A stretch of 64,000 nucleotides of DNA from Candidatus Nanoarchaeia archaeon (lineage in GTDB: Archaea; Nanobdellota; Nanobdellia; Woesearchaeales; SKIA01). The stretch covers positions 11,922 to 75,921 of the forward strand of contig JANQNG010000002.1 of NCBI GenBank assembly GCA_028279685.1. Reading direction: 5' to 3'. The notes below the pieces were generated by a model. The model searched no databases, was not told where the DNA came from, and saw only the letters and a list, made by a program, of their open reading frames with translations. Below, piece by piece: positions 38,575-63,595 of the stretch. The stretch's first letter is position 1. Each line of letters begins with the position of its first letter. The position numbers and the translations under genes were made by a program.

Positions 38575-38700
38575 CCATACCTCTCACAGCCTCTAAAAAT
38601 AGGAATTGAAGCTAGTTTATATCTCTGCTTTTCTATCGCTTTCTATGTTTATAAAATTTACTACTTTTTAGTAGTTTCTTAATTATTTTCCATATAGAAT

Positions 38701-39501
38701 TTATAATATGTTTTTCACATCGTAAATAGATGGTACGCGAATAACATTCTCCTGTTCTGGATATTCATCTGTAGAAATATGAATTACGTTCATACCAAGA
38801 GAGGTTGCAGGGACAACATCGCTATGATATAAGTCACCAACATAGACAATCTCTGAAGGATGTGCTCCAGTGATTTCAAGAATTTTTTCAAATGGTTCTA
38901 ATGATGGTTTTTTATCTTTAACAACTTCTGAACAAATAACAAGAAATGGTGTGTCTGTTTTCATATGAAATGCAGAAAGCGGTATTGCAAGTGCATTGGT
39001 TACTTTTTCAACGGTAGAAAATACTTCTGATGTCATAATACCTAATTGATATTTATCGTCGAGATATTCTACTAAACCACACAACTCTTTATCTTCTGCA
39101 AGTATTGATGCAAAATCAGTATTACCCACAAGTCTTGCTACAAATCCAGCATCAGTATCAAAAATATTAGTGAATAATTTTCCATTCGAATGATATTGTT
39201 CAAGAAGATTATCATAATGCATTTTCATTTCTTCAGGAAATGATGCAATCGCTTCTAGTAAAGTATTATTTTGAATATGTTCTTTGTATTCTTGTATTAC
39301 TTCATTAGCTAATGCTTCAGGATCAGGAATACCTTCTTCTCTTGCTTTTGAGAAAGCAGAATATCTAAAGAACTCATGAGAATTCTGCACCGTACCTCTA
39401 CCAGGAATGTATTCTCTCTTCTTCCCATACAATGTACCATCAACATCAAAAATAACATATTTGATATTTTTCCAATTCATATGCACACCAATGTTCTCCA
39501 T
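38701..39501 (-). CDS. HAD-superfamily hydrolase/phosphatase
   Basis: Motif I FDVDGTLY, a distal VYVGD motif and a cap domain. It is embedded between kinase genes. Confidence 0.7.
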   Translation of the reverse strand: MENIGVHMNWKNIKYVIFDVDGTLYGKKREYIPGRGTVQNSHEFFRYSAFSKAREEGIPDPEALANEVIQEYKEHIQNNTLLEAIASFPEEMKMHYDNLLEQYHSNGKLFTNIFDTDAGFVARLVGNTDFASILAEDKELCGLVEYLDDKYQLGIMTSEVFSTVEKVTNALAIPLSAFHMKTDTPFLVICSEVVKDKKPSLEPFEKILEITGAHPSEIVYVGDLYHSDVVPATSLGMNVIHISTDEYPEQENVIRVPSIYDVKNIL

Positions 39502-39543
39502 TTTATAAAGTTTTCCATTTTTATTCCTGATTGGTAGTAATAA

Positions 39544-43979: not shown

Positions 43980-43991
43980 TCAACATACCCC

Positions 43992-46694
43992 TCAATCATT
44001 ATTTTTGAACGGACCGCTCATATCAAATATCTTCCCCCTGCAACTATTGTTAGTTTCATCAGATTCTCTATAATTATTATCAGAATCTACTATAAAACAA
44101 AAAGACAATAAAGCATTGCCATGCTTTTCATAATATTGTTTAACTTTATCAAATGGAACATACGGTCCTAGATACATTTGATCTTTATTTCCAGGTTCTA
44201 AGGAAATCTTACTATCCAACATTAAATCTATTTCAGGAATCCCAAATTTTATCGGAATATTTTCTAAATAATATGGACTATCATTGTAAAAATTAGCTCT
44301 AACTTGATACATAAAATGCTCTTCTCCAGATCTACTAGGACTAAAAGTCTCATAACTGTATGGATCTGCCCTTAAATCAATAGGTTCATCAGAAACATTT
44401 AATCCACCTACACACACCTCACTTTTCCTACCATCACTTACAGAAAAAACAACATGATAATAACCATTATGCTGAGAATTTGGGGTAAATGTAAACTTCT
44501 TCCCTTGACTAATCACTCTCGTACTATCTGTTAATAAAGTGACATTCGAACCTAAGGAAATATGCTCTTCAAAAACATCTTCTCCTTCTTCTTTCTCTTG
44601 AAGAACAACCCATTTATAATACAACGAATCACCATCCAGATCTTCGACATTAGCTGCAAAATTTATTGGAACTCCTATTGGAACATCAGGATAAGGATCT
44701 CCTTTAAAGAAACGTTCAGGAAATACAGTAATAATACTTGGAGAATAATTACCTTTAACTAAAACATTCCATTCTTGAGTCGATTCAAATACACCATCAT
44801 TTACCACACACTTTACTCTGTGGTTACCAGGATCAATAACCTGAAAATCTAGTTTTACCCTGTCTTTATCATTTGAAAGAGGAACATTATCAAGAAACCA
44901 AGAAAATGAAACATCATCTCTTGATATAAGATCAACCAGAGAAAAATATGCTTCGTCACCTTTTCCAAATTTATGTTTAAGCCTATATGGTCTAAGCTCA
45001 TCTTTTACATCTACCTTAAATTCAACAGGTTTATCTTTCTCTGAAGTCTCAAAAAACCTTTTTTCAGGTTTATATGCATCAATACGAGGAGCTCTATTTT
45101 CATATGATATAAAAATTATTTTCGTATAAATATCTGCTAATCTATCTGAAACAGTTCTTGTCGAAGAAGTATCAGTTTCCATCTGTGCATTTCGTATAAA
45201 ATAAACAATCTCATCATTTTCCTGTCTTTTCTTAAAATCAAATGAGAATCCATATACATAATGACTGCTTTTATCTCTTCTAAGAAACTCAGCCTCTTGC
45301 TTCTTCTTAAGAACACCATTCAATATCCAATAACACGTAGCTCCTTCAAGATTAGCAGAAGTAATTAAAATTTCAGGAAGATCATCTGCCAAACAATACA
45401 TTGGCTGTTCAAATGTTTTTACTGCTTTATTTCGCTCATTTCTTAAAGCCAAATTAGTCGTATCGCTTTGATCATCCCAAATCCATTTAACATAAGAAGT
45501 GTCAGCTCCTCCTTCTATTATAAAATTTTCACCACCATCATTAAAATAAGATTCAAAAGTAGGATATTTATTTCTAAACTCTAGAGCATCTTCAATCCAA
45601 CCTCGTTCATTAGCACGCCATTTTTCATATTCTTTAATTATTCTATTTCCTTCAAATCTTCTCCAAGAAGCATCTCCTGTCAAAAACAAGCCATACAATG
45701 CTGCTGAGCCCAGAAGTATATAAGCAGGAATCTTAATTTTATTCCAAACAGCTTTTCCTATCTTTCCAAAGTTTATTTTTTTTAACTTTCTTCGAAAGCG
45801 ACGTACTTTTCCAAAATCTCTTCCCAACTCACCAACACTTTGAAATCGCTCATCAGGGTCGTAGCGAAGACATTTTCTTAATATTCTTTGAATTCTTTTA
45901 TTTTTTATTCCTTCAAGCTTTCTCTCTAAACTATCATAACTCTTAGGATTATTCAAAACATCTTTCATTTCAGATTTCTTCTCGCATTGGAAAGGGCGTT
46001 CTCTCAGGCAAAGTTCATACAACAACACTCCTAACGACCAAACCTCTGAACGCGCATCAAATTTACCATCAAGCGTTTCAGGTGCTTGATATTCTCTATC
46101 ACCAGAATAGTCTCCTGTAATATCATCACCCATAGCAATACCATAATCAACAACCTTCACCAAACCAGATTTTTCAAGCATAATATTCTCTGGTTTAATA
46201 TCCCTATGAAAGAATCCAGCATGATGAATAGCAGCTACTCCTTTAGTAGTTTGCGAAAATATTGAAACAATCTCACCAAGAGATAATTCCTTCTTTCGCT
46301 CTTGCAAAGAAAGAAGTGTCTCTCCACGAATAATATCAAACAATAAACCATCTACCTTTCTTTCCCTTTCTATCCCATCATTCTCTTCAACAATAGTAAT
46401 ATCATTAATATTTGCTCTATAATTTGCAAGATTAGGATGTTTCAGCATTGAAAGCACATAACCTGTTCTTGATTCAACTTGAGAAAGATCTATTCCTTCT
46501 TTTCTCCTAACTCCTTCAAGCATACGATACGCATTTGAACTATCTCTCAAAGGATTTCCTGGAATAATTTTTAGAGCAAAGATATTATCTTTATTCTTAT
46601 CATCCTGAACTTCAAAGTAATTTCCCGTAGCACCTTCTCCTAATCTCTCAATAACATTATATCCAGGTGCTTCCACGGAAATAATTCTAATCAT
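43992..46694 (-). CDS. transmembrane receptor-like Ser/Thr protein kinase with a large extracytoplasmic beta-rich (Ig/PKD-like) domain
   Basis: N-terminal canonical kinase: GEGATGNYF (Gly loop), ALKII (VAIK Lys), HRDIKPENIML, VVDYG (DFG) and APETL (APE). A single TM helix lies at ~aa 323-341, followed by an ~550-aa extracellular region. Confidence 0.85.
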   Translation of the reverse strand: MIRIISVEAPGYNVIERLGEGATGNYFEVQDDKNKDNIFALKIIPGNPLRDSSNAYRMLEGVRRKEGIDLSQVESRTGYVLSMLKHPNLANYRANINDITIVEENDGIERERKVDGLLFDIIRGETLLSLQERKKELSLGEIVSIFSQTTKGVAAIHHAGFFHRDIKPENIMLEKSGLVKVVDYGIAMGDDITGDYSGDREYQAPETLDGKFDARSEVWSLGVLLYELCLRERPFQCEKKSEMKDVLNNPKSYDSLERKLEGIKNKRIQRILRKCLRYDPDERFQSVGELGRDFGKVRRFRRKLKKINFGKIGKAVWNKIKIPAYILLGSAALYGLFLTGDASWRRFEGNRIIKEYEKWRANERGWIEDALEFRNKYPTFESYFNDGGENFIIEGGADTSYVKWIWDDQSDTTNLALRNERNKAVKTFEQPMYCLADDLPEILITSANLEGATCYWILNGVLKKKQEAEFLRRDKSSHYVYGFSFDFKKRQENDEIVYFIRNAQMETDTSSTRTVSDRLADIYTKIIFISYENRAPRIDAYKPEKRFFETSEKDKPVEFKVDVKDELRPYRLKHKFGKGDEAYFSLVDLISRDDVSFSWFLDNVPLSNDKDRVKLDFQVIDPGNHRVKCVVNDGVFESTQEWNVLVKGNYSPSIITVFPERFFKGDPYPDVPIGVPINFAANVEDLDGDSLYYKWVVLQEKEEGEDVFEEHISLGSNVTLLTDSTRVISQGKKFTFTPNSQHNGYYHVVFSVSDGRKSEVCVGGLNVSDEPIDLRADPYSYETFSPSRSGEEHFMYQVRANFYNDSPYYLENIPIKFGIPEIDLMLDSKISLEPGNKDQMYLGPYVPFDKVKQYYEKHGNALLSFCFIVDSDNNYRESDETNNSCRGKIFDMSGPFKNND

Positions 46695-50627: not shown

Positions 50628-51334
50628 TCTTTGATTTGTAATTCAACTATGCCATTAATCTTATGTAGTGCATTAAGTCCATCTTTCTTGATATCGATAT
50701 TATGTGCATTGAATACTTCATCAACCATTGTTATTCTTTCTTTTACACTATCACATAATCCGTTCACATCACTATAAGCGGGATGAATACGAAGAAGATA
50801 GTCACACAACACCACCATGTGATGCTCTTCAGCAGAGATCTTTTCTAAGTACTTATCAAATGAAAGCTGAACATATTTGTGAATAACATTCTCTGCCATC
50901 TCCTGTTCAATTGATTTCATAGGCTGCCTTCCGCCACGCTGTACTCTTCTGATAAAATTATTGAGCTTCTTTGAGCATGATTGAGCAACATAAGCTGCCC
51001 AATAAGAGGGAGATATGTGTTGTTCCAGAAAATCATAGAGCTGCTTATCTCCATACTCCTGAGCATAGACATCAGACATGAGTAATACTGCTGTGTTCTT
51101 TGAAAAATCAATTTTATCTACATCCAAATGCTTAAGATAATATTTTGATAATAGATGTTCCTCTAATGTAAGCCCCTCTTCTGAGCACTTCTTCGTTGGT
51201 TCAGCTATAATGCCTTGTTCGAAAGATATCTTTCTTTGATAAACACCTCTAGGAATTCTTTTTCCTTTACCCTGTACTTTAATATTATGAGATCTTGCTT
51301 TCAGTAGCTGTCTTACATCAACCATAGCTTTCAC
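50624..51334 (-). CDS. hypothetical protein
   Basis: 236 aa ORF; overlaps both neighbours. Confidence 0.5.
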   Translation of the reverse strand: MKAMVDVRQLLKARSHNIKVQGKGKRIPRGVYQRKISFEQGIIAEPTKKCSEEGLTLEEHLLSKYYLKHLDVDKIDFSKNTAVLLMSDVYAQEYGDKQLYDFLEQHISPSYWAAYVAQSCSKKLNNFIRRVQRGGRQPMKSIEQEMAENVIHKYVQLSFDKYLEKISAEEHHMVVLCDYLLRIHPAYSDVNGLCDSVKERITMVDEVFNAHNIDIKKDGLNALHKINGIVELQIKE

Positions 51335-52628
51335 TCGATTTAGTTTTTTTAATACCTTTACCTGATTTTTTCGAAATCTTTCCGGATTTCTTCATAATTC
51401 GTCTAATTTTCTTCAATTTAGTTGCATGTTTTTTCTTTGCATATCTGTTCTTACTAAGAATATTTTTCAATTCATTTCTAGTATCTTTCGTTATCTCATC
51501 AAATTCCTCTTTATGCTGCTTGTAAATTTCTTTCATTGCTTCAATACGCTTATCCCATCTCCATATCCTCGTGCCTCTTTCCACATAATCACCTTTTTTT
51601 ATATCTCCGACATTACCACGATATTCTCCTGCAAGTATTTTTGAGACTATTCCAAGCACTCTCTCTCCTTTATTCTCTGACTGTTGTAATTTTTGATAAT
51701 ACTTTGTAATCAATGAACGATATCTTCTCTTTGGTATTTGTTCTTCAGAAAAGGTTTTCTCTTTCAGCACATTCTTCGTCTTAATTTTTGTTTCTAGATC
51801 ATCACCAACTTGCTTTTTTGAATCATCATCATTTTTTCCAACAACTTGATATTCTCCCAGTCTTTTTCCATCTCTACCAATAATCACTCTTTCTTTCAAT
51901 TGAGTCACAATATCTTCTTTTTCCTCATCATCTGGAGTAAAATGACCTTCTTCTATGATATTCAAAGGAATATGTTCATAGCGATTTCTTATTGCTATTC
52001 TCTCTCCTTCTTGAATTTGAGGATACGCTATATTCATTGTCGCATATGGTGTGTCATTATGTTGGTTCATCACAAGACCGTAAGTATACTCAAGATAATA
52101 TTGTTCGCCATCCTCCTGCTCAACAGGAATATCTTTGAACATCCTATAATCAGTAAGAAAATTTTCAAATGTTCTGACATCCCTGCCAGAGAAAAAATTA
52201 GAAAATTTTCCATGAGAATGAGCCCATCCTGCAATTCGTTTATTGAGATTATGTTTAATATCTCTCTCTGATGTAATAGCACCTCCCCCTGATATTGTAC
52301 AATATCCTGGATAGACCGTCTGATCATGTGCAATATACGCATCATTGATAACAGGTTTTCCTTCTCTAACTGTATCTTTCTCCGCAAGAAGATAAATTGC
52401 CATTTCATGCGAAGGTAAATGAGCCTCTTGAGTTATATTCCCAAATGCACTAATAATATGTTCAAGTTTTTCTTTCGCATAAGCTGTTATATTAATTCCT
52501 TCAGCAGCAAAAGCATTAGCATGCTCTCTTATTTCAGCATTTTCCTCATCAACAGTAGTATATCCAAGCATTATTTCACCTTCTTGCATTACGTTCAACA
52601 TAGATTCGTTGAGGTAATTCCGTAGCAT
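51318..52628 (-). CDS. JAB/MPN (JAMM) metalloprotease-domain protein with a long C-terminal extension and Lys-rich tail
   Basis: Complete JAMM motif: E (SHEMAIYLL) ... HSHGKFSNFFSGRD (HxHx7Sx2D). The C-terminus is KKKHATKLKKIRRIMKKSGKISKKSGKGIKK. Confidence 0.75.
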   Translation of the reverse strand: MLRNYLNESMLNVMQEGEIMLGYTTVDEENAEIREHANAFAAEGINITAYAKEKLEHIISAFGNITQEAHLPSHEMAIYLLAEKDTVREGKPVINDAYIAHDQTVYPGYCTISGGGAITSERDIKHNLNKRIAGWAHSHGKFSNFFSGRDVRTFENFLTDYRMFKDIPVEQEDGEQYYLEYTYGLVMNQHNDTPYATMNIAYPQIQEGERIAIRNRYEHIPLNIIEEGHFTPDDEEKEDIVTQLKERVIIGRDGKRLGEYQVVGKNDDDSKKQVGDDLETKIKTKNVLKEKTFSEEQIPKRRYRSLITKYYQKLQQSENKGERVLGIVSKILAGEYRGNVGDIKKGDYVERGTRIWRWDKRIEAMKEIYKQHKEEFDEITKDTRNELKNILSKNRYAKKKHATKLKKIRRIMKKSGKISKKSGKGIKKTKSSESYG

Positions 52629-54057
52629 AACTCATAGGACCATCAATGACATTTTTCATTGAATTATAATCAAGTACATGAATCATCTCTCCAACCATGG
52701 CTGCAGCGATAATTTCATTAGACATTACTACACTAGGATTAGGACCATCGCAAATATTTCCCCCTTCTGGAAAACCTTCAAGATCTAGTTGATCTCCTAT
52801 TGAAGAAGTTACACCAGGTATATAGACAGCAACTTGCCCTGCTTTTGGATGTGTTCCTCCATCTATATAAGGTACGTTGTGTTTTTTAGTGAATGTATTC
52901 ATCCAAATTCTTGCATGCTTATTATCTACACATCCAAGCACCACATCATATTGCTTTTTAGTAAGTTCCTTTTCAGAAATTAATTTTATATTCTCTCTCT
53001 TATCTTCTCTAGAAAGCACATCTCCTAATTTTCCATTATAGACATCTGATTTTATCTTATGATCTATATTGCGAACACGCATAGAAAGCACTTCAGCCTT
53101 ATTGTGTCCGATGAAATTTCTCAATTCTGTCTGTCTATTAAGATTTTTGTGTTCTGCAACATCATAATCAACAAAATCAATCCTGCCAATTCCAAGATAG
53201 CGTAAATAAATCGAAGCCCAATTTCCTAATGCTCCCGCACCAACCACCAGCACATTATTCTTTCTATAAGTCGGAAGATTATTCTTTCTTAGATTAGATT
53301 TTAATCCTTTTCTATTCTTACTATATAAGTTATAGATAAGACGATGATTACTTGGAAGATGAGCATCATCATCGTTATACTTAAATGCATATTTCCTCAC
53401 TTCTTCAACAGCTATACCAGAAACAATTCCACTTGTAAAGCCTCCTTGATCCTTTCCATTGAATTCCTCATGTACAAGAGCATCAAGATCAGGATTCTCT
53501 TTAAGCACATTTACTCTTCCTTTATTCTTTGGCCAATAGCAAGCAATAGCGCTTCTATCTTCATCTGATGATAACGAAATAACAGGTATAGGGTTGTTCT
53601 TTCTCCTAAATGCGTAGCGAAGCACTTTTTCTTTCGAAACAACTTCATTTGTAGCATCGATAAGTATATCTGGGTTAAACCCCATGATAAACGCTTCAGC
53701 AAATCTACCATGTCTTTTGATCGTTGGAGGTGTATGGTCAATTTGATGTAATGCCTCAAAAACCATATCACTCTGCTTTTTTCCTGCAATTTTTTCTCTC
53801 TTTCCATAGAGAAATCCTTTGTCTTTTGAAGTAACTGAACGTGAATTATCAAAATAATAAATATTCCTAACACCTAAACCATAAAGTGATGCAAGCACCA
53901 TTTGCCCAAGCAAATTAGTACCCACTACAGCCACTTTTAGCTTATTTACCATCTCCTGCCTTTCATTACCCAGCATACCATCTCCGAATGCAACACTATT
54001 ACAAACATGAATTTCAGAAACCGCATCTACGTCACCCATTCGCATCGACCCCCACAA
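52576..54057 (-). CDS. E1-like (ThiF/MoeB/UBA-family) activating enzyme with two tandem Rossmann/adenylation-like domains
   Basis: The C-terminal active-type domain has VLVVGAGALGNWASIYLRYLGIGRIDFVDYDVAEHKNLNRQ. The N-terminal degenerate domain has VAVVGTNLLGQMVLASLYGLGVRNIYYFDN. Its start overlaps the upstream JAB gene. Confidence 0.75.
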   Translation of the reverse strand: MWGSMRMGDVDAVSEIHVCNSVAFGDGMLGNERQEMVNKLKVAVVGTNLLGQMVLASLYGLGVRNIYYFDNSRSVTSKDKGFLYGKREKIAGKKQSDMVFEALHQIDHTPPTIKRHGRFAEAFIMGFNPDILIDATNEVVSKEKVLRYAFRRKNNPIPVISLSSDEDRSAIACYWPKNKGRVNVLKENPDLDALVHEEFNGKDQGGFTSGIVSGIAVEEVRKYAFKYNDDDAHLPSNHRLIYNLYSKNRKGLKSNLRKNNLPTYRKNNVLVVGAGALGNWASIYLRYLGIGRIDFVDYDVAEHKNLNRQTELRNFIGHNKAEVLSMRVRNIDHKIKSDVYNGKLGDVLSREDKRENIKLISEKELTKKQYDVVLGCVDNKHARIWMNTFTKKHNVPYIDGGTHPKAGQVAVYIPGVTSSIGDQLDLEGFPEGGNICDGPNPSVVMSNEIIAAAMVGEMIHVLDYNSMKNVIDGPMSYATELPQRIYVERNARR

Positions 54058-55388
54058 CCATTATTGTAATATTCTCTTTCATATGTTTTGATAAGATTTA
54101 GCATAGACTCACAAACATCTCTTTTCTGCTCGAGTTTCTTAATTCCGATCACCCAACCAGGAAATACATTATTACTTATCCTTCCATTAATCAAATCATG
54201 AACATCATCAATATATTTTTTCTTTGGCACTAATACATCTAATAATTCATTGAATCTTGTATCAAGAATTGAAGTCTGTTTATTGCGGTGGTCTTTATCA
54301 GACATAATGACGGTTTGTGCATCACATATAACACCATAGACTTCCTCTATTGGATTAAAAGAATTAACCCCTTTGATATTATTAAAATTATGAGAAACAA
54401 TATTTGTTGCTTCATGAATTCTTTTATAGATCGAGTCATAAGTACTATTAAAAAAATCTAATTGTTTTTTCTTATGAGAATTTGTCTTTGCAAATTTATC
54501 TTCTTCTACATACAACGTTCTTTCTCTATTGAAAATTCCTGCTGGAATACCTTTTTTCTTGACCAGATTTTTATCTCTAGTAACAATTATGCGTTCTCTA
54601 ATCTGATTGACCCTTGATTTAATCTGCTGATCAATATCTTCTGTTTTAATACAAGGCACTTGCTCTTCTTCGATCTCTTCAAAAGGAACATTTTCAATTA
54701 GTGTAATTCCATTTCCCTTAGAGTAGCCAATTACTGTAAATGGCCTATCATTATCAGCATTGAATACCATTCCATATGTGTATTGCACCTCTGCAGAACC
54801 GTAAGACATAACTGTTAAAGGATGATTCTTTACCTTCTTAAGATCGAACTTATCAAAAAAACTGGAACGAACCATCTTCTGTTTATTTGGTTCCACTTGA
54901 AGATACGTTTTCCCCTTGTGTTTTACAAAACGCACATCGTCTTCTTTTTCAGTTTCTTGCATTTCAACATCAAGAAACATCTTATTGTCTTCGAGAAAAT
55001 AATTGAATGTTTTTCTATCTCTTTTTGAAAAGAAAGTGGAAATATCCCCATGCGAATGCCCCCATCCAACAACACGCATTCTTAGATTATTCTTGATATC
55101 CCTCATAGAAGTAATCAACCCATCACCTGATATAATACAATAATCAGGATACGCCTCTTGATCATGGGCAATATAGACATCACTAATAAGAGGTCTGTTC
55201 TTTTTTGCTTCTTCTTTTGTAGCAAGCATCAAAAATCCTATCTCATATGTTGGCAGACTTAAAGAAGAACAAATTGCTTTCACTCTTCGTGCAATAAGCT
55301 CACTTTTCATTTTTGCACGAGAAGTAATCCTGATAGGCGAGATCATGCTTTCAATCTTTTTATCTAATGTTGTCTCCCTCATTTTCAA
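54027..55388 (-). CDS. JAB/MPN (JAMM) metalloprotease-domain protein, paralog of 51318..52628
   Basis: VVGWGHSHGDISTFFSKRD is a perfect HxHx7Sx2D. It shares the context DVYIAHDQEAYPDYCIISGDG with DAYIAHDQTVYPGYCTISGGG in the paralog. Confidence 0.75.
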   Translation of the reverse strand: MKMRETTLDKKIESMISPIRITSRAKMKSELIARRVKAICSSLSLPTYEIGFLMLATKEEAKKNRPLISDVYIAHDQEAYPDYCIISGDGLITSMRDIKNNLRMRVVGWGHSHGDISTFFSKRDRKTFNYFLEDNKMFLDVEMQETEKEDDVRFVKHKGKTYLQVEPNKQKMVRSSFFDKFDLKKVKNHPLTVMSYGSAEVQYTYGMVFNADNDRPFTVIGYSKGNGITLIENVPFEEIEEEQVPCIKTEDIDQQIKSRVNQIRERIIVTRDKNLVKKKGIPAGIFNRERTLYVEEDKFAKTNSHKKKQLDFFNSTYDSIYKRIHEATNIVSHNFNNIKGVNSFNPIEEVYGVICDAQTVIMSDKDHRNKQTSILDTRFNELLDVLVPKKKYIDDVHDLINGRISNNVFPGWVIGIKKLEQKRDVCESMLNLIKTYEREYYNNGCGGRCEWVT

Positions 55389-56695
55389 TTCTTAAAGATT
55401 CTTTCCTCAGATATACCATGTTTTTTTGCATAGTCTTTTGCATCATCCTCATTTAACGCAATAGGAGTATAATTAGAGATGCTATGCACAGGAGTCAGCG
55501 TATTACCAATATATCCTGTTGTAATATTTCCTGTTGCTTCCCAGAGCATAAGTGCAACTCTTCGTGCTAATCCTTTATCTTTTATAGAATACTTATGAAG
55601 AAACTTAACATTAAGGTAAGACCATCTTTCCGCACCTGCAAAACAAATTCTTCCACTTGGATAGACAAAAGGATGATTATATGGCATATCACGTAATGTC
55701 GGCTCATTCTTAATAGTAACATATCTATCAGTAATATCTAGTGTTGTACCTACTCGAACACGTTTACTTCCTTCTTTTCCTTCTTCATTGAATGCATAAT
55801 ATTTCCCATCCTTCTCAAGCAAATAAGGCTCAATCTCTGCATAGAACAAATACTCATTATTGCCTCTAGGTTCATATCTTATATTACCTACTTTCTTTCG
55901 AGTTTTTTTTACTTTTTTTTTAGAAATATTTGCATCAATTTCTTTTTCTTTTTTATACAATAATAAAATTTGATTCTTAAATTTTTTACCATGTTGCAAC
56001 GCAACTTGTTCTACATCTGCACGAAGACGCAATCTATATTCATCTGCTAGCTTCTGAAGAGGCATTAATGGCTTAAGCGAATAATCTGTTCCTTTGAATG
56101 TTAAAGTTCCGTTTCTTCTAGCTTTAGAAGAAATAAGTTCATAACATGTACCAGCAATAGTCACAATACCTGGACGAGGAATTAAATCATAAATACGCGT
56201 TTCTATGTTATGTAAGTCATCTAATGCAGGATAACTATTTATTGCTGTATCGATCTTAGGATCTTCAATAACAACTTCCTTCTTTTTTTCTCTTTGATAA
56301 TTATAAATCTTAAAAACATCTTGAATAAACCTATCAAGAGATTGCTCTTTCATAGAACCATAGTAATTTATTTTTTTCGAAACTTGTGAGGATAGTTCTT
56401 TGAGTCTTCTAATAAGTTTAAAATCAATAACCCAACTCATATACTCCTTAAGATCATCTTCATTATCTTTGAATAATTCTCTCTGAAAAAGAGAAAGCTC
56501 ATCAGACTCAAAGAGAGGATATTGCTCCTTAAGATATTTCCATGCATTACCATTTGCTGAAGGAGTATTCCTTTCAATAGTATAGATACGAGAATCTAAC
56601 AACGCAAATGTTTCTCCAGACATCATGAACTTATCTAATATTGTTGGAGCTAAACAAATCTCTTTTTTCATAATACCCCCTCTACAAAAAAGCAC
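55385..56695 (-). CDS. large protein with a C-terminal ubiquitin-conjugating-enzyme (E2/UBC)-like domain
   Basis: MPYNHPFVYPSGRICFAGAERWSY matches the UBC active-site signature HPN[IV]xxxGxIC[LF]xxLxxxW, including the catalytic Cys. The N-terminal ~300 aa has no assignable domain. Confidence 0.5.
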   Translation of the reverse strand: MLFCRGGIMKKEICLAPTILDKFMMSGETFALLDSRIYTIERNTPSANGNAWKYLKEQYPLFESDELSLFQRELFKDNEDDLKEYMSWVIDFKLIRRLKELSSQVSKKINYYGSMKEQSLDRFIQDVFKIYNYQREKKKEVVIEDPKIDTAINSYPALDDLHNIETRIYDLIPRPGIVTIAGTCYELISSKARRNGTLTFKGTDYSLKPLMPLQKLADEYRLRLRADVEQVALQHGKKFKNQILLLYKKEKEIDANISKKKVKKTRKKVGNIRYEPRGNNEYLFYAEIEPYLLEKDGKYYAFNEEGKEGSKRVRVGTTLDITDRYVTIKNEPTLRDMPYNHPFVYPSGRICFAGAERWSYLNVKFLHKYSIKDKGLARRVALMLWEATGNITTGYIGNTLTPVHSISNYTPIALNEDDAKDYAKKHGISEERIFKN

Positions 56696-56704
56696 ATAAC
56701 ATGC

Positions 56705-57184
56705 CTAATCACAGAGCTTGTCCTCAAGGTTCACATACGCTGATGTTCCTCCAGGCACACTTCTTCTGGCAATAAAATCAATCAATTTATACTTCTCTTT
56801 AGCGTTGGTTTCAGAATCAATTTCTTCCTTTGTTCTAATAATCGAATCATATTCAGCAACTCGACCATCTAAATCCAAAGGTATTGGTTCTCCATTATCA
56901 ACTATTGCCTTGATCGAGACCTTGTAGTTATCAGGATCCGCATTCATATCTCTGAACCATTTACTCACTGTATTTGCTACATCTCTTTCTTCCGCATTGT
57001 ACGCTTCATTCAATGCATCTGCTTCTGGATCGATAAGTTTTCTAATCAAATCCTCCACAGTTCCTTCAAGATAAGTCTGTTCAACTTTCTTCACCAGTAA
57101 GACACCCTCATCATTGTCCTTTATCGGGACCATAGCATCAAGAGTGACATATATTGGCTTGTCATCCATAATATCAACCTCCAA
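56705..57184 (-). CDS. small acidic protein; candidate ubiquitin-like modifier precursor (internal Gly-Gly followed by a 13-aa tail)
   Basis: The ORF is robust: 159 aa, the first gene after a hairpin+T8 element, immediately upstream of the E2-like gene. The Ubl call itself is inferential. It rests on the ...ARRSVPGG|TSAYVNLEDKLCD C-terminus and beta-strand-like segments (KPIYVTL, YKVSIKAIV). Confidence 0.3.
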   Translation of the reverse strand: MEVDIMDDKPIYVTLDAMVPIKDNDEGVLLVKKVEQTYLEGTVEDLIRKLIDPEADALNEAYNAEERDVANTVSKWFRDMNADPDNYKVSIKAIVDNGEPIPLDLDGRVAEYDSIIRTKEEIDSETNAKEKYKLIDFIARRSVPGGTSAYVNLEDKLCD

Positions 57185-57228
57185 AAGTTATACTATACTA
57201 ATATCGTAATCATTCATAAGTCTTTACC

Positions 57229-57264
57229 AAAAAAAACCGCAAAATTTCCGTCGAGAAACGGAAG
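57229..57264 (-). terminator. hairpin CTTCCG-N8-CGGAAA followed by T8 on the minus strand, directly after the ATP-grasp stop codon
   Basis: Plus strand reads A8-CCG-CAAAAT-TTCCG-TCGAGAAA-CGGAAG; the TAA stop of 57267..58211 abuts it. Confidence 0.45.
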
Positions 57265-57266
57265 AA

Positions 57267-58211
57267 TTACATTCTATATTTCTTTCCTTGTGCAATATGC
57301 ATTAAGCGTCTTCCTATGAGTCTATTGAAATCATGCATATTCTCAAAATCAGGATGATCAAAGAATTTCCGGTCAATAACTCCGTATCTCCCATCACAAT
57401 CACATTCAATCACATAATTGTTTCTCTCGTGATCCTGTACAATATCAACCACACCAATATCAAATCCAACAGCATCTGCAGCCTGCAAAGCAATCCTCCT
57501 GAGATCTTCTGATGGCTCCATAAACACATAATGCGCTCCTCTAGCGATATTGATAATAGCTTCGCCAGGAGTATTAACATGTTCCTTTTCTCGTATGGTT
57601 CCAAAAGGCACCTCGTCTCCTAGCACATACATTCTCAATACACTTTTGTTAAAATCCCCATTATCTCCTATATATTCTTGCAGAAGATAAGGAGCAGCAA
57701 TAACAGAATCACCTATCTCAACATATCTTTCCTTTTCTACAATATCATATTTTCCTTCGTTATTATAAGCTACATAATTACCATGCTCCTTCATCAATAC
57801 AAAATGCTTATTTCCTGCACAATCATAAGGATACTTCAGCATAGCAATATCTCTTGTACTCATGAAAACATCTATCGCCCTCTTATTAGAGCAAAGCTCA
57901 AAGAAAGGATGGGAAATGTTGTTCTTCTTGAATAACTCATTAGATTTTATTTTATTCATGGCAATCTCTTGAGCACTATATGCGTTTATAATGGGCGTCC
58001 TCTGAGACCACCTCTCAAAATCGAATTTTGGACCGTGCATCATCATATAAGCAACATCATATCCTTCTAGCAGTTCTACATTCCCTTCTGTAAGACGATC
58101 ACATACAAACCCTTCCCTACGTATAGTCTGCTGAAGAGGCTCTACAAAATGTACATCATAATACGTATCTTTCCCCGCAATAATAGCAAATTTCAAACTG
58201 ATCCCCTCCAT
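57267..58211 (-). CDS. ATP-grasp amidoligase (RimK/glutathione-synthetase-like)
   Basis: MLKYPYDCAGNKHFVLMKEHGNY, LLQEYIGDNG...LRMYVLGDEV, and VGFDIGVVDIV...YVIECDCDG (ATP-grasp C-terminal VLEVN-type motif). Confidence 0.6.
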   Translation of the reverse strand: MEGISLKFAIIAGKDTYYDVHFVEPLQQTIRREGFVCDRLTEGNVELLEGYDVAYMMMHGPKFDFERWSQRTPIINAYSAQEIAMNKIKSNELFKKNNISHPFFELCSNKRAIDVFMSTRDIAMLKYPYDCAGNKHFVLMKEHGNYVAYNNEGKYDIVEKERYVEIGDSVIAAPYLLQEYIGDNGDFNKSVLRMYVLGDEVPFGTIREKEHVNTPGEAIINIARGAHYVFMEPSEDLRRIALQAADAVGFDIGVVDIVQDHERNNYVIECDCDGRYGVIDRKFFDHPDFENMHDFNRLIGRRLMHIAQGKKYRM

Positions 58212-58852
58212 TCTTCATACCAATGACTCGCCTCTCCATCAAGCAATACTTTTACTTCTTTATGTTTGACATCATACGTGTGATAAGCAGGATCAATAAA
58301 AAGATCTCCTGGTTCAAGATCAACCCAAGCACATGCGTGTTTTACATTTCTTCCAAAACAATCTACTTTTACACTAGTGTAATGACTTGTTAATCCTACT
58401 GTTCTTGCCATAACAACATACAAGTAAGCCATCTCTCCACAAACACCTTCACGATCACGCATTACCTCTTCTGCATTCTTATATCCATTGGTTCTCATTG
58501 ATTTTCCATAATCTATATTATTCTGCATCCAATCAAAAATACTTCTTGCTTTCTCTTGTAATGTAGAAAGTTGTATTACTTCTTTCTTTAGAAAGTTAGC
58601 AGCATTCACAGGCATGCCAAAAGGACTCTGTATGGTATCATCAACAATAAGCACTCTGTAATTACTGTTGATCTTGCTTAAGTCAAGAGTAGTATCTATC
58701 TGTTTCCTTTTCTTGAGCTTAAACCGAATATGAGATGTATCATCACAATAAGGATTAACCTGCGTTCTTCTTTTTTTCAGCGATTCTCTGATAGTACTAT
58801 CATTGTGCATTCTTCCATGAAGCTTTCGCTTAATAAGTACATTAAGAGTCAT
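58193..58852 (-). CDS. transglutaminase-like cysteine peptidase-fold protein
   Basis: GVCGEMAYLYVVMARTVGL (catalytic Cys context of the transglutaminase-like core), with downstream His/Asp candidates (HACAWVDLEPGDLFIDP). Confidence 0.6.
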   Translation of the reverse strand: MTLNVLIKRKLHGRMHNDSTIRESLKKRRTQVNPYCDDTSHIRFKLKKRKQIDTTLDLSKINSNYRVLIVDDTIQSPFGMPVNAANFLKKEVIQLSTLQEKARSIFDWMQNNIDYGKSMRTNGYKNAEEVMRDREGVCGEMAYLYVVMARTVGLTSHYTSVKVDCFGRNVKHACAWVDLEPGDLFIDPAYHTYDVKHKEVKVLLDGEASHWYEEWRGSV

Positions 58853-58861
58853 ATATTCTCC

Positions 58862-59923
58862 TCATGAAAGATATCTCATCGAATCTGTGAGATTTGCTCT
58901 CTGGACATCTCCTAAGAGCTGTGCCATCACAGCATTCTGTCTATCAGCAGCATCTAACCCTGGATGTGACTGTATAGTATCTCTTATATTTTCCAATGCG
59001 GAACTATAGCTCGCATTAAGATCGTCCTGATATTGTTGGAGCATACCAATACCTGTTGAAACTATACTCATCATATCTGAAAGTTCTACAACAGGCTCTA
59101 CTGATCCTGCAAGATCATCAAGATGTTCTTGATAAAATGAAGTGAGTGTTGACATTCTCTGTGCACCTTCAATAACAGCAGCAAATAATCGTTCAGAGAG
59201 CCATATATTCCAAATACGCTGCCTAATATGAGTAACGCTCATCGCTGAATTAAAAAACTCTCCTGTCGTATCACTTTTCTCTCTCACTACTTTCATATAT
59301 TGTTGAAGCGCATCACTATGTTTTTCGGGATCAGCATCCGGATCCAACCCTTGTAACGTTTCCTGAAGCGATTTCTCATTATACACTTGTTTAGGAACTT
59401 CCTCTTCAAGAAATTTTTTTCTCAAAGTCTCATCTCTGTTTTCAGGAATAAGCGTATCTAATGTTCCTTTTACCTCATCAAGCTTGCTTGAATATGACTC
59501 AACCATCGAATCAAGAATTGAATTTAATTGTCGCACTCTTTCCTGCTGTTCAGGGAAAATTTGATGTAAATCACGGCGATTTATGGGTTGTCTTACTATT
59601 TTATCAGCAAAATAATATTTAACATCAAGCATAGTTTTTTTCAATGGTCTTGCTTCTCTGTATTCAACATATCTTTCAAGTTCTTGCTGTCCTTTATCTA
59701 TCCCTTTAATAATATAATTAACATCTTCCATTCGAGGATTAACATTAACTGCTGTTGAACCCCCTAAGTAAGGGAGCACATCAGTTCTTGTTCGACCTAT
59801 TCTCATAGGATCTCCTGTCTGATTTCTTGGACTTGTTTGCGTTCTTGTTGTAAGAGAATTATCTTTTGTATTAACAACTACTTTTCTTCTTAATTTAAGA
59901 CTATCTTTTATTGAATCGACCAT
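58862..59923 (-). CDS. hypothetical alpha-helical acidic protein (possible Alpha-E-like partner of ATP-grasp/TGase systems)
   Basis: 353 aa from the first ATG (the ORF track starts at GTG 59932). It leads the three-gene group and is preceded by a TATA-like ATATAAAA and an AAAGGTGG ribosome-binding site. Confidence 0.45.
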   Translation of the reverse strand: MVDSIKDSLKLRRKVVVNTKDNSLTTRTQTSPRNQTGDPMRIGRTRTDVLPYLGGSTAVNVNPRMEDVNYIIKGIDKGQQELERYVEYREARPLKKTMLDVKYYFADKIVRQPINRRDLHQIFPEQQERVRQLNSILDSMVESYSSKLDEVKGTLDTLIPENRDETLRKKFLEEEVPKQVYNEKSLQETLQGLDPDADPEKHSDALQQYMKVVREKSDTTGEFFNSAMSVTHIRQRIWNIWLSERLFAAVIEGAQRMSTLTSFYQEHLDDLAGSVEPVVELSDMMSIVSTGIGMLQQYQDDLNASYSSALENIRDTIQSHPGLDAADRQNAVMAQLLGDVQRANLTDSMRYLS

Positions 59924-59989
59924 AGCAACCACCTTTTATTTAAATTAAACATAATATCAACGATCAAAACTATTTTATATGTCTTCGCT

Positions 59990-61846: not shown

Positions 61847-62329
61847 TCACAATGATTCTTTTGCTGTTTCCATCAAATTAAACAACATAATATCAGTCAT
61901 GAACGCTTCTTTCTTGATATCGTCAACAATATAATAGATTTGCGTTGATTCTATCTTAAATGCATCCTCTAATGATTCTTTGAACGCCTCCATATCTTTG
62001 ATCTGCTTGAAAACACCCTCAACAAGAAAATCATAGCCGTTATTAATCTGATACATGCTATTCACCGAAGGATGCTTGAAGAGATGCTTCTGCAGGTTCT
62101 TTCTATCTTCTCTATTGACTTTAATGAAGAGCTGTGCTTTTGCATGAAACCCAAGCTTAGAGAAATCAACAAGGCTGGTGTGCTTTGTGATAATATTTTC
62201 TTCATGTTGTTTCATTCTATCAAAGATAGTTGAGACAGGTATCCCTGTCTTTTTACTCATCTTAGTCAGTGCAATTCGTGCATTTGATCTCAATTGTGCC
62301 AGTATTTTCAGATCGTTTTGATTCACCAA
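61847..62329 (-). CDS. lrp: Lrp/AsnC-family transcriptional regulator (paralog of 34887..35363)
   Basis: HTH_AsnC plus RAM domain; 160 aa. Confidence 0.85.
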   Translation of the reverse strand: MVNQNDLKILAQLRSNARIALTKMSKKTGIPVSTIFDRMKQHEENIITKHTSLVDFSKLGFHAKAQLFIKVNREDRKNLQKHLFKHPSVNSMYQINNGYDFLVEGVFKQIKDMEAFKESLEDAFKIESTQIYYIVDDIKKEAFMTDIMLFNLMETAKESL

Positions 62330-62413: not shown

Positions 62414-62614
62414 ATATGAATTCATAGCAATAATCATGTTTGTATAGCTATCTCTAGTTCGTTGTTTCTAGAAAAATACTGCCCAAAAAACTCGCGTAAT
62501 TGTCCCCGAAAACTTTGTATTATACATTCTTCAGGGAAACTCATATTTTAAGATTCTTATCAAAATTTTGTGAAAAATAACAAAATTTATATAATAAATG
62601 TCATTATTTATTAT

Positions 62615-63595
62615 ATGAGAAGGGATAAACTAAAAATCGATCTTCTTGATCGTAAGATCCTTTACTATCTTGACATCAATGCGCGGCAGCCAACCACCAC
62701 ATTAGCAAAAAAAGTCCGTGCTAGCCCCGCAACTGTTGAATACAGGATCAAACGTATGGAACGAGGAGGGTTAATAAAGAATTATATGACCTTTCTTGAT
62801 GCGGGAAAGATAGGATACATGGTTTGGAATGTCTATCTTGAACTGCATAATGTTACAGAAAAAGAGGAATCTGAGCTGTTCACATATCTTTGTAATTTAG
62901 AGAATAGTTGGTGGGTTGCTCGTTGTGCAGGAAAATGGGACGCAGTCTATAGTATAGGAGTCAAAAACATCAAAGAGTTTTACCGTACAGTAACTGATGT
63001 CTGGAATAGATTCAGCAAGTATATCATCAGACAAAGTATTGAAGCGCATGTTGAACTTGCAGTAATATCAAGAGGCTATTTTCTAAACAAGCCAGGCATT
63101 AGTGTTCCTTGGTATACAACATTTCAGCAAGAGATACTAACAGAAATAGAAAGAAAAATACTTAAAACTATCTCGGAAAACGCAAGAATGCCAACCACAG
63201 AAATCGCAAGAAAAACTACGTTGACTCCTAAAATCGTCTCTTATCATCTCAAAGATCTTGAACGAAGAGGAATTATTAGTAGATACAGACTTCAACTTGA
63301 TGTTTCGAAAATTGGATTCAAATTCTTCAAAGCAATTGTCTATCTAAAGGTTTTTACCTATGAAATGAATATGCAACTCAAAGAATACTGTATTCAAGAA
63401 GGTAATATCTTTCATTATGAGCAAAAAATAGGACACTGGATGCTTGAACTCGAACTTGATGCAAGAGATTTCGAGCGTGCAGATAGCCAGATGAAGAAAC
63501 TGAAAGAGCGTTTCCCTGACTTTATTAGAAATTATGAATTGCTACTCATCACAGAAGAACTCAAAGGAGACCTTGACTTTAGTAAGGTATTGTAG
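62615..63595 (+). CDS. internally duplicated (tandem) Lrp/AsnC-like regulator
   Basis: Two HTH_AsnC-like units (LDRKILYYLDINARQPTTTLAKKV...IKRMERGGLI and IERKILKTISENARMPTTEIARKT...LKDLERRGII), each followed by a RAM-like segment. Start taken at MRRDKL. Confidence 0.7.
   Translation: MRRDKLKIDLLDRKILYYLDINARQPTTTLAKKVRASPATVEYRIKRMERGGLIKNYMTFLDAGKIGYMVWNVYLELHNVTEKEESELFTYLCNLENSWWVARCAGKWDAVYSIGVKNIKEFYRTVTDVWNRFSKYIIRQSIEAHVELAVISRGYFLNKPGISVPWYTTFQQEILTEIERKILKTISENARMPTTEIARKTTLTPKIVSYHLKDLERRGIISRYRLQLDVSKIGFKFFKAIVYLKVFTYEMNMQLKEYCIQEGNIFHYEQKIGHWMLELELDARDFERADSQMKKLKERFPDFIRNYELLLITEELKGDLDFSKVL

What the first reader, a model, noticed from the sequence alone, without database searches (positions are those of the whole stretch)
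56705..57184. Candidate ubiquitin-like precursor with internal di-glycine and 13-aa C-terminal extension
The small gene at the head of the operon ends ...KLIDFIARRSVPGG-TSAYVNLEDKLCD. Archaeal and bacterial Ubl precursors that need JAB processing expose their GG in the same way. Two JAMM peptidases are encoded just downstream. The protein is longer (159 aa) than a single beta-grasp, so it could be a tandem or N-terminally extended Ubl, or it may not be a Ubl at all.
Basis: inference. Interest (0 to 1): 0.55.

Follow-up and report, generated by a model that had tools for sequence, protein, structure and literature searches.

The report
Archaeal ubiquitin-like precursor with conjugation enzymes
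The small gene encodes a new, unannotated family of ubiquitin-fold proteins from tiny DPANN archaea; it carries a removable tail after a conserved glycine and always sits beside E1-, E2- and deubiquitinase-like genes, so it is very probably a ubiquitin-style protein tag.

Summary
The gene lies on the minus strand and ends ...RRSVPGG-TSAYVNLEDKLCD. The real start is the ATG at 57169, giving 154 aa rather than 159.

- **Family.** An exhaustive HMMER search found 73 homolog clusters of 124-166 aa. None has a Pfam, NCBIfam or PADLOC family or a functional name. In 53 of 70 aligned members a Gly occupies the column of Gly141, preceded by G, S or N. The tail after it runs 0-27 residues, as in Ubl precursors.
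- **Context.** In every related locus with enough flanking DNA, the gene sits beside three partners. These are a protein with an E2-type HPF..IC..W motif, a two-domain E1, and one or two JAMM peptidases with intact motifs. The labelled loci are Woesearchaeota and Nanoarchaeota. A transglutaminase-fold protein recurs in four of seven neighbourhoods.

The likely mechanism, inferred and not demonstrated, is JAMM cleavage after Gly141, then E1 adenylation, E2 thioester formation and conjugation to lysines. It works like Bil or Caldiarchaeum ubiquitin operons, but I could not show sequence membership. I rate it a new variant of a known kind.

The parts
56705..57169 (-). Ubl precursor gene (154 aa plus TAG stop). 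It is a single beta-grasp with a helical insert and founds an unannotated DPANN-archaeal family.
56747..56752 (-). Codons for Gly140-Gly141. Gly141 is the predicted mature C-terminus and activation site.
   Evidence: Coordinates. 53 of 70 family members have Gly in the Gly141 column; the preceding residue is G in 45, S in 10 and N in 3.
56708..56746 (-). 13-residue C-terminal propeptide TSAYVNLEDKLCD, predicted to be removed.
   Evidence: pLDDT falls from 91 to 58 after residue 140. Tail length across the family is 0-27 with median 6, and three members end exactly at the Gly. Close relatives share a weak [LI]-[ED]-[DS]-x-L motif.
57170..57266 (-). Spacer upstream of the Ubl gene. It contains a hairpin (57246-57263), a T8 run (57229-57236), the TATA-like TATAGTATAA (57188-57197) and GGAGGT (57177-57182).
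   Evidence: Read directly from the sequence. The bacterial-type terminator scan found nothing, so the transcription signals are inferred only.
55385..56671 (-). E2-like protein (428 aa). An unknown N-terminal region of about 270 aa precedes a C-terminal UBC-like domain with HPFVYPSGRIC (residues 333-343, 55643-55675). Cys343 is the predicted thioester site.
   Evidence: Y-x-HPFV...IC...W is invariant in 6 homologs. hhalign against human E2s aligns the active site, E 2.8e-4, probability 41%. UBC E2s appear at E about 1 in a PDB profile search. A homolog hits Pfam UEV at E 0.006.
54027..55388 (-). JAMM/MPN+ peptidase 1 (453 aa), with HSHGDISTFFSKRD at residues 111-124.
   Evidence: Motif. Weak Pfam Prok-JAB and JAB hits. 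Family profile hits Rpn11 at E 0.001, plus Caldiarchaeum Rpn11-like, BRCC36 and AMSH.
52576..54057 (-). E1-like activating enzyme (493 aa). It has an N-terminal degenerate adenylation domain (VVGTNLLGQ) and a C-terminal active one (VVGAGALGN, NLNRQ, GCVDN, PYIDGGT). The conserved Cys436 region is the candidate thioester site.
   Evidence: Pfam ThiF at 1.7e-42 in two stretches. Best PDB hit is UBA5 at 1e-11. All NCBIfam hits fall below their cut-offs. Motifs and the conserved Cys.
51318..52628 (-). JAMM/MPN+ peptidase 2 (436 aa), with HSHGKFSNFFSGRD at residues 137-150. This is the paralog kept in the most distant loci.
   Evidence: The single JAB in L006 and in L009 is closer to this paralog.
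58193..58852 (-). Transglutaminase-core protein (219 aa) with Cys138, His172 and Asp187 in the expected positions. It is a recurrent accessory partner.
   Evidence: Pfam Transglut_core at 3.4e-13. Orthologs sit beside the Ubl gene in L008, L009 and L011/L012. The triad was read by eye.
58862..59932 (-). 356-aa protein of unknown function, a conserved neighbour.
   Evidence: Homologs occur in L002, L008 and L011. No family hit.
57267..58211 (-). RimK-type ATP-grasp ligase (314 aa) in the variable slot just upstream of the Ubl gene. It is probably not core to the system.
   Evidence: Pfam RimK at 5.6e-10. The slot holds a vWA-like gene in L002 and L011 and nothing in L008.

Best explanation
The gene encodes the precursor of a ubiquitin-like protein modifier belonging to a self-contained conjugation cassette: Ubl, E2, JAMM, E1, JAMM. 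The cassette lies on the chromosome of a DPANN (Woesearchaeota/Nanoarchaeota-type) archaeon.

Proposed cycle:
1. One of the two adjacent JAMM metallopeptidases cuts after Gly141. This removes the 13-residue tail and exposes ...RRSVPGG-COOH.
2. The C-terminal, active adenylation domain of the E1 adenylates Gly141. The Ubl is then taken up as a thioester, probably on the conserved Cys436 region of the short crossover loop.
3. The Ubl passes to Cys343 of the E2-like protein (HPFVYPSGRIC).
4. The E2-like protein attaches it through an isopeptide bond to lysines of target proteins.
5. The JAMM peptidases also reverse the modification.

The large N-terminal region of the E2-like protein and the recurrent transglutaminase-fold protein may supply target choice or a second (de)conjugating activity.

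What is shown computationally: the beta-grasp fold, the conserved terminal Gly with variable tails, the enzyme identities and motifs, and the conserved linkage. What is inferred: cleavage, activation, conjugation, the targets and the biological role.
For: - **Family.** There are 73 clusters at E<=1e-3 among 1.84 billion representatives. Gly is conserved in one column in 53 of 70 aligned members, followed by tails of 0-27 residues; three members end exactly at the Gly.
- **Linkage.** The Ubl gene sits beside E2-like, E1 and JAMM genes in L002, L006, L009, L010 and L012, at Ubl identities down to 25%. L011 shows Ubl, E2 and JAB1 before the contig ends; L008 shows Ubl, E2 and a JAB without a recognisable E1 on the contig. 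In L003, a member ending exactly in GG is followed by the N-terminus of the E2-like protein.
- **E2.** The HPFV..IC..W motif is invariant. hhalign aligns it to the E2 active site. A homolog hits Pfam UEV.
- **JAMM.** All 10 homologs carry HxHx7Sx2D, and the family profile hits Rpn11, AMSH and BRCC36.
- **E1.** It has the IAD plus AAD architecture with intact ATP-binding motifs.
- **Precedent.** JAMM pre-processing of a Ubl to expose its terminal Gly has been shown for BilC/BilA (PMC10557695) and for CsRpn11/CsUb (PMC6043591, abstract).
- **No rival gene.** No other member of the family and no GG-tailed candidate occurs in the window.
Against: - There is no experimental evidence of cleavage or conjugation.
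- The E2 assignment rests on several weak signals: hhalign probability 41%, PDB E about 1, and UEV E 0.006.
- About 17 of 70 family members lack a Gly in that alignment column. Several of these still have a GG/GA nearby and are probably misaligned, but some end in Cys-rich tails instead, so not every member can work this way.
- The E1 has no large CYS-domain insertion, and in this sublineage it has lost the CxxC zinc motif.
- The most conserved part of the Ubl is the insert loop DPxxDxxNxxYN. Its role is unknown and could point to a function beyond tagging.
- The Foldseek E-values are marginal (3e-3).
Confidence: 0.72

Rival explanations
1. The same Ubl system, but the tail is removed by the transglutaminase-fold (papain-like Cys-His-Asp) protein, which also reverses or catalyses the isopeptide links. 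The JAMMs would then act only as deconjugases or on other substrates.
For: The transglutaminase-core gene is a neighbour of the Ubl gene in the window, L008, L009 and L011/L012, including loci where the Ubl is only 25-27% identical. Cys, His and Asp sit in the expected order. From general knowledge, many eukaryotic Ubl proteases are thiol proteases.
Against: The gene is absent near the Ubl gene in L002, L006 and L003, whereas a JAMM is present wherever the flank is long enough. Known prokaryotic E2-containing systems use JAMM for pre-processing.
Confidence: 0.12
2. The protein is a beta-grasp sulfur carrier or dual-function SAMP/Urm1-like protein. Its terminal Gly would be thiocarboxylated by the E1 for cofactor or tRNA thiolation rather than mainly conjugated.
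Against: An E2-like protein with a conserved Cys is always linked. The E1 has no rhodanese domain, and it scores far below the ThiF, MoeB and UbaA cut-offs. No thiamine, molybdopterin or tRNA-thiolation genes were seen among the neighbours examined. ThiS and MoaD are about 66-90 aa and lack such inserts (general knowledge).
Confidence: 0.05
3. The protein is a non-conjugated ubiquitin-fold adaptor or regulator. It would bind the E2-like, E1 or JAMM proteins or form assemblies through its conserved DPxxDxxNxxYN insert. The near-terminal Gly would be structural and the tail never removed.
For: The most conserved residues (D51, Y57, N54, N58, E61) lie in the insert, not at the C-terminus. Some family members have no xG motif. 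Bacterial Ubls can self-assemble through metal sites (PMC11601603, abstract).
Against: A structural Gly would not be followed by tails that vary from 0 to 27 residues, with some members ending exactly at it. An intact adenylating E1, a Cys-bearing E2 and JAMM enzymes have no obvious role without a conjugatable substrate.
Confidence: 0.08

Closest known systems
Bacterial BilABCD (Bil, 'bacterial ISG15-like') ubiquitination-type antiphage operons
   Different: - No sequence-level membership. BilD is not among the 56 PDB hits of the E1 at E<=1e-3, where UBA5 is best.
- The E2 and JAMM proteins alone have no PDB sequence hits, and no PADLOC model matches the Ubl, E2 or JAMM proteins.
- This E1 has no roughly 80-aa CYS-domain insertion.
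- The E2 carries a roughly 270-aa N-terminal region.
- There are two JAMM paralogs with long C-terminal extensions.
- The Ubl has an internal helical insert.
- The host is archaeal and the locus is chromosomal, with no compositional sign of an island.
- A transglutaminase-like partner is present.
Caldiarchaeum subterraneum-type archaeal ubiquitin operon (Ub, E1, E2, small RING E3, Rpn11)
   Same: It is an archaeal operon with an E2-containing cascade, and its Ub precursor is processed by an Rpn11-like JAMM (PMC5654768 and PMC6043591). The JAMM family profile built here hits the CsRpn11-like protein 6fjv at E 0.0085.
   Different: No RING E3 was detected here. The Ubl is 141 aa when mature and contains an insert, against a roughly 76-aa ubiquitin look-alike. 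All proteins are far more divergent, with no Pfam UQ_con or ubiquitin hit. The lineage differs: DPANN rather than Aigarchaeota or Asgard.
Haloarchaeal SAMP / UbaA / HvJAMM1 sampylation
   Different: Sampylation has no E2. UbaA is a single-domain E1; the E1 here scores 55 bits against the UbaA model, whose cut-off is 450. From general knowledge, SAMPs are small, mostly end at GG without a propeptide, and double as sulfur carriers.
Bub operons (bacterial ubiquitination-like; DUF6527 serine protease)
   Same: These are Ubl, E1 and E2 cassettes whose Ubls are architecturally diverse (PMC11601603).
   Different: Bub systems use a DUF6527 serine protease and fused Ubl-E2 or E2-E1 proteins. Neither feature is present here.

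Membership tests
Ubiquitin-like (beta-grasp) protein modifiers, generic | Beta-grasp (ubiquitin superfold) domain | tested here: met
Ubiquitin-like (beta-grasp) protein modifiers, generic | Flexible C-terminal tail ending in Gly after the last strand, either exposed or followed by a removable extension | tested here: met
   The last strand spans residues 124-137 and is followed by SVPGG141. pLDDT drops after residue 140. Gly is conserved in 53 of 70 members, with tails of 0-27 residues.
Ubiquitin-like (beta-grasp) protein modifiers, generic | Genetic linkage to an E1 adenylating enzyme, and to an E2 for true conjugation systems | tested here: met
   Ubl, E2-like, E1 and JAMM genes occur together in the window, L002, L006, L009, L010 and L012.
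Ubiquitin-like (beta-grasp) protein modifiers, generic | Covalent attachment to targets through the C-terminal Gly | not testable with these tools
   This needs mass spectrometry or in vitro reconstitution.
Bil (BilABCD) systems | Sequence homology of the components to BilA-D families or defence-system models | tested here: not met
   PADLOC has no hit for the Ubl, E2 or JAMM proteins; the E1 hits only generic CBASS E1-E2 models. BilD is absent from the E1's PDB hits at E<=1e-3. The PADLOC 2023 library may predate the Bil models.
Bil (BilABCD) systems | E1 with IAD, AAD and an inserted helical CYS domain | tested here: inconclusive
   IAD and AAD are present. The crossover region is short, with a conserved Cys but no roughly 80-aa insertion. 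No structure model was available.
Bil (BilABCD) systems | Antiphage function or defence-island context | tested here: inconclusive
   Neighbours include housekeeping genes: ribosomal L15e in L003, and RNA polymerase with ribosomal proteins in L008. GC content is uniform. No relative was found in viral contigs. Function was not tested.
UBC/E2 superfamily (for the 428-aa neighbour) | HPN-type motif followed 7-8 residues later by the catalytic Cys, then a conserved Trp, within a UBC fold | tested here: inconclusive
   The motif HPFVYPSGRIC...W is invariant. hhalign aligns it to the E2 active site with E 2.8e-4 and probability 41%. PDB E2 hits have E about 1.2. A homolog hits UEV at E 0.006. The fold was not modelled.
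JAMM/MPN+ deubiquitinase-type peptidases (for both neighbours) | Glu ... H-x-H-x7-S-x2-D zinc site within an MPN domain | tested here: met
   The motif is present in all 10 homologs. The family profile hits Rpn11 at E 0.001, and nearly all the other listed hits are JAMM deubiquitinases. Single-sequence Pfam hits fall below the gathering score.
ThiS/MoaD sulfur carriers | Small (about 66-90 aa) beta-grasp ending in GG, linked to a ThiF/MoeB E1 and sulfur-transfer or cofactor genes, with no E2 | tested here: not met
   The mature protein is 141 aa with an insert and is made with a propeptide. An E2-like gene is always linked. The E1 scores below the ThiF and MoeB cut-offs. No cofactor genes were seen among the neighbours examined.

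The most novel reading that the evidence does not exclude
DPANN archaea (Woesearchaeota/Nanoarchaeota) carry their own deeply divergent and so far undescribed ubiquitin-type conjugation system on the chromosome. Its parts would be:
- an insert-bearing Ubl precursor;
- a large E2, paired in some genomes with Cys-to-Asp UEV-like variants;
- a pseudo-dimeric E1 without a CYS domain;
- two Rpn11-like JAMMs;
- a transglutaminase-fold partner.

This would be a third archaeal route to protein tagging, beside SAMPs and the Caldiarchaeum/Asgard ubiquitin operon. It could serve proteostasis or host-symbiont or virus conflict in these reduced-genome cells. A sister subfamily with Cys-rich tails may be anchored or used differently.
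Probability: 0.55. Interest if true: 0.72.

Novelty: new variant of a known kind. Interest (0 to 1): 0.62.

Why it matters
Complete Ubl, E1, E2 and deubiquitinase cascades outside eukaryotes are known from only a few lineages: Bil, Bub and CBASS in bacteria, and Caldiarchaeum and Asgard operons in archaea. They are central to the debate on where ubiquitination arose.

A further, sequence-distinct cascade in DPANN archaea would widen the known diversity of ubiquitin-type tagging. Its Ubl, E2 and JAMM proteins are absent from Pfam, NCBIfam and PADLOC and are named only 'hypothetical'.

It would also supply new reagents that can be tested directly: a precursor Ubl, two JAMMs and a compact two-domain E1. 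And it raises the question of what such a system does in organisms with minimal genomes. The recurring transglutaminase-fold and inactive-E2 partners hint at mechanisms not seen in the bacterial systems.

Tried and rejected
- **Sequence searches with the single protein** found nothing: PDB, Pfam, PADLOC and NCBIfam.
- **The word-indexed homolog search** found only the protein itself plus one 51% relative. Repeating it with the family profile gave six hits. The exhaustive HMMER search was needed to find the family.
- **AlphaFold2 with a 2-sequence alignment was useless** (pLDDT 37.7). The 70-sequence alignment fixed this.
- **afdb50 was unavailable**.
- **Locus scans with broad alignments failed** for lack of conserved stretches. 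The narrow alignment gave one genome locus and nothing in metagenome or viral contigs. An E2-based metagenome scan gave two loci.
- **The tandem-Ubl idea is rejected.** The model is one compact domain (pTM 0.82) with six strands and two long helices.
- **An N-terminal extension is rejected.** Strand 1 starts at residue 6.
- **The ATP-grasp as a core component is rejected.** Relatives have a vWA-like gene or nothing in that slot.
- **The bacterial terminator scan found no site**. The hairpin and T8 run are noted only as sequence features.
- **Literature searches** for DPANN or Woesearchaeota with ubiquitin, JAMM, E1 or E2 terms found no description of this system in the held library.

Full report
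**1. Observation**

The ORF at 56705..57184 on the minus strand is real and ends ...KLIDFIARRSVPGG-TSAYVNLEDKLCD, followed by a TAG stop. The 159-aa reading starts at a TTG that lies inside a GGAGGT Shine-Dalgarno-like element. The ATG at 57169 sits 7 nt after that element. It matches the public gene call (P0001, 154 aa) and the MDDKP... start of the closest homologs. The gene is therefore 56705-57169. The GG codons are 56747-56752 and the 13-residue tail is 56708-46.

Upstream lies an 82-nt spacer. Reading from the stop of the preceding ATP-grasp gene, it contains a 6-bp hairpin, a T8 run and a TATA-like TATAGTATAA. Downstream, the genes overlap or abut one another. The gene plausibly heads a Ubl-to-JAB2 transcription unit, but this is inferred only. 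The bacterial terminator scan found nothing.

**2. What the neighbours are**

Running downstream on the same strand:

- **A 428-aa protein with no family hit.** Its C-terminal domain carries HPFVYPSGRIC...W.
- **JAMM peptidase 1** (453 aa).
- **A two-domain ThiF-type E1** (493 aa).
- **JAMM peptidase 2** (436 aa).
- **Unknown proteins** of 236 and 418 aa.

Both JAMM proteins and all eight homologs examined carry H-x-H-x7-S-x2-D. A profile of the family hits yeast Rpn11 (E 0.001), the Caldiarchaeum Rpn11-like protein, BRCC36 and AMSH, and essentially nothing else.

The E1 has a degenerate N-terminal nucleotide loop (VVGTNLLGQ). Its C-terminal adenylation domain is intact (VVGAGALGN, NLNRQ, GCVDN, PYIDGGT). 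A conserved Cys lies about six residues before (N/D)PS(V/I)V, and there is no large CYS-domain insertion. Its best solved relative is UBA5 at 1e-11. It scores far below the NCBIfam cut-offs for ThiF, MoeB and UbaA.

The E2 call rests on four weak but convergent signals:

- The motif Y-x-HPFV-x(4-6)-IC-x(6)-W is invariant in six homologs.
- hhalign against UBE2D2, UBC9 and UBC13 aligns exactly the HPN-Cys-Trp active-site segment, with E 2.8e-4 and probability 41%.
- UBC E2s appear at E about 1.2 in a PDB profile search, at the same segment.
- A 611-aa homolog hits Pfam UEV at E 0.006.

Upstream lie a RimK-type ATP-grasp, a transglutaminase-core protein and a 356-aa unknown.

**3. The protein itself**

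Alone, it matches nothing in the PDB, Pfam, PADLOC or NCBIfam. The word-indexed search found only one relative, at 51% identity, which ends VPSG-LESKL. That already shows that only the second Gly is conserved and that the tail length differs.

An exhaustive HMMER search of 1.84 billion representative proteins found 73 clusters at E<=1e-3. Nearly all are 124-166 aa. In a 70-sequence alignment:

- 53 members have Gly in the column of Gly141.
- The preceding residue is G in 45, S in 10 and N in 3.
- What follows is a tail of 0 to 27 residues, median 6.
- Three members stop exactly at the Gly.

Among close relatives the tails share a weak [LI]-[ED]-[DS]-x-L pattern. This is the signature of Ubl precursors.

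A first AlphaFold2 run with two sequences failed (pLDDT 37.7). With the 70-sequence alignment the model reached pLDDT 91.8 and pTM 0.82. Confidence fell to 58 exactly after residue 140.

The secondary structure runs: strand 6-11, strand 24-29, helices 31-45, a conserved loop 46-58, helix 59-77, strands 83-89, 95-98, 112-117 and 124-137, then SVPGG. This is one compact beta-grasp enlarged by an internal loop-plus-helix insert and an extra hairpin. It is neither a tandem nor an N-terminal extension.

The most conserved residues of the family (D51, Y57, N54, N58, E61) lie in that insert. Their role is unexplained.

**4. Linkage elsewhere**

| Locus | Source | Gene order |
|---|---|---|
| L002 | Candidatus Woesearchaeota MAG; Ubl 64% identical, ends VPGG-NSLDGVVENCYEI | Ubl, E2, E2 fragment, JAB1, E1, JAB2 |
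| L011/L012 | metagenome contigs | 356-like, transglutaminase, vWA-like, Ubl (VPGG-GLAEIVAMYR), E2, JAB1, E1, JAB2 |
| L006 | Ubl 35% identical | Ubl, E2, E1, JAB |
| L008 | Ubl 27% identical | 356-like, transglutaminase, Ubl, E2, JAB |
| L009 | labelled Nanoarchaeota; Ubl 25% identical | transglutaminase ... E2 domain, Ubl, E1, JAB, second Ubl paralog |
| L010 | metagenome contig | Ubl, JAB, E2, E1 |
| L003 | member ending exactly in GG | beside ribosomal protein L15e; followed by the E2 N-terminus |

The core is therefore Ubl, E2, E1 and a JAMM. The transglutaminase-fold protein recurs in 4 of 7 distinct neighbourhoods. The slot just upstream of the Ubl gene is variable: ATP-grasp here, vWA-like elsewhere, or nothing.

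Several observations point to ordinary chromosomal DNA of a DPANN archaeon:

- The window carries archaeal Nre, AspRS, ArgRS and SecDF genes.
- GC content is uniform at 0.32-0.38.
- Pattern scans found no relatives in viral contigs.
- The family HMM finds no second member in the window.
- No other small ORF has a credible GG tail.

**5. Mechanism**

The best-supported reading has five steps:

1. A JAMM peptidase cuts after Gly141.
2. The active domain of the E1 adenylates Gly141 and takes the Ubl as a thioester, with the Cys436 region as the candidate site.
3. The Ubl moves to Cys343 of the E2-like protein.
4. The E2-like protein attaches it to target lysines.
5. The JAMMs reverse the modification.

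What has been shown computationally is the fold, the conserved Gly with variable tails, the catalytic motifs and the gene linkage. All the chemistry is inferred by analogy with two systems in which a JAMM pre-processes the Ubl: BilABCD (PMC10557695) and the Caldiarchaeum operon (PMC6043591 and PMC5654768).

The rivals are processing by the transglutaminase-fold protein, a sulfur-carrier role, and a non-conjugated adaptor. They are listed separately with their evidence, and none is favoured.

**6. Comparison with known systems and novelty**

In function and gene order this is closest to Bil. It also has the IAD-plus-AAD type of E1. Membership could not be shown, for these reasons:

- BilD is not among the E1's PDB hits at E<=1e-3.
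- No defence-system model matches the Ubl, E2 or JAMM proteins.
- The E1 lacks the CYS-domain insertion.
- The E2 has a large N-terminal region.
- There are two long JAMM paralogs.
- The Ubl carries an insert.

It differs from sampylation in having an E2 and a propeptide. It differs from the Caldiarchaeum type in lacking a detectable RING E3 and in its extreme divergence.

Full-text searches of the held library found no paper describing such a system in DPANN or Woesearchaeota. That library is incomplete, so prior description elsewhere cannot be excluded.

I classify it as a new variant of a known kind. My confidence is about 0.9 that it is a beta-grasp Ubl and about 0.72 for the full precursor-and-conjugation model.

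Noticed in passing
L002:5778-6311; L009:5163-5759 and L009:8284-8898: Related loci carry extra E2-domain-only genes in which the catalytic Cys is replaced by Asp (HPFVYDNGSID, HPLVYADNTID). They sit beside an active copy (HPFVLDGNEIC). This resembles the eukaryotic UEV/Mms2 pairing with Ubc13.
   Followed up: partly
L009:12388-12888 (P0075); also P0030, P0043, P0068, P0021: A subset of the Ubl family lacks the xG motif and ends in Cys-rich tails (..CCCCRYDR..CDCRG..MCC..CSCCFCVGSVR). P0075 is a second paralog in the same locus as an SG-type member, and an Rce1-like CAAX-protease gene (L009:12932-13528) follows it. Possible lipid anchoring or metal binding is untested.
   Followed up: partly
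window 58193-58852; L008:8303-8977; L009:6996-7676; L011:1292-1993: A transglutaminase-core (Cys-His-Asp) protein recurs next to the Ubl gene, even where the Ubl is only 25-27% identical. Its role in the system is unknown.
   Followed up: partly
window 57267-58211; L002:3050-3907; L011:2067-2831: The gene slot immediately upstream of the Ubl gene varies. It holds a RimK-type ATP-grasp ligase in the window and a vWA-like protein in two relatives.
   Followed up: partly
window 36457-46694 (minus strand): Four large proteins with Ser/Thr protein-kinase domains (705, 879, 599 and 900 aa) lie further downstream on the same strand as the Ubl cassette, with a HAD-hydrolase gene among them. The 900-aa protein also has Ig/PKD-like repeats.
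   Followed up: no
window 61847-62329 (-) and 62570-63595 (+); L009:1363-2471: AsnC/Lrp-type regulators flank the conserved neighbourhood, including a tandem two-module 341-aa form. The AsnC gene is 50% identical between the window and L009, suggesting a conserved regulator of the region.
   Followed up: no
window 52576-54057; L006, L009, L010 E1 genes: The E1 of the window, L002 and L012 has lost the CxxC zinc motif (SSIGDQ), which the more distant homologs keep (HCVDCQ, RCVDCQ, SCIKCK).
   Followed up: no
window 56705-57169, residues 46-61: The most conserved segment of the Ubl family is the loop DPxxDxxNxxYNxxE, inside the insert between the two helices, and not the beta-grasp core or the C-terminus. 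Its acidic/Asn pattern could be a metal-binding or enzyme-docking site.
   Followed up: no
window 19267-20991: The aspartyl-tRNA synthetase carries a GAD insertion domain (Pfam GAD, 2.8e-20). From general knowledge this is typical of bacterial-type AspRS, and it is unusual in an archaeal genome.
   Followed up: no
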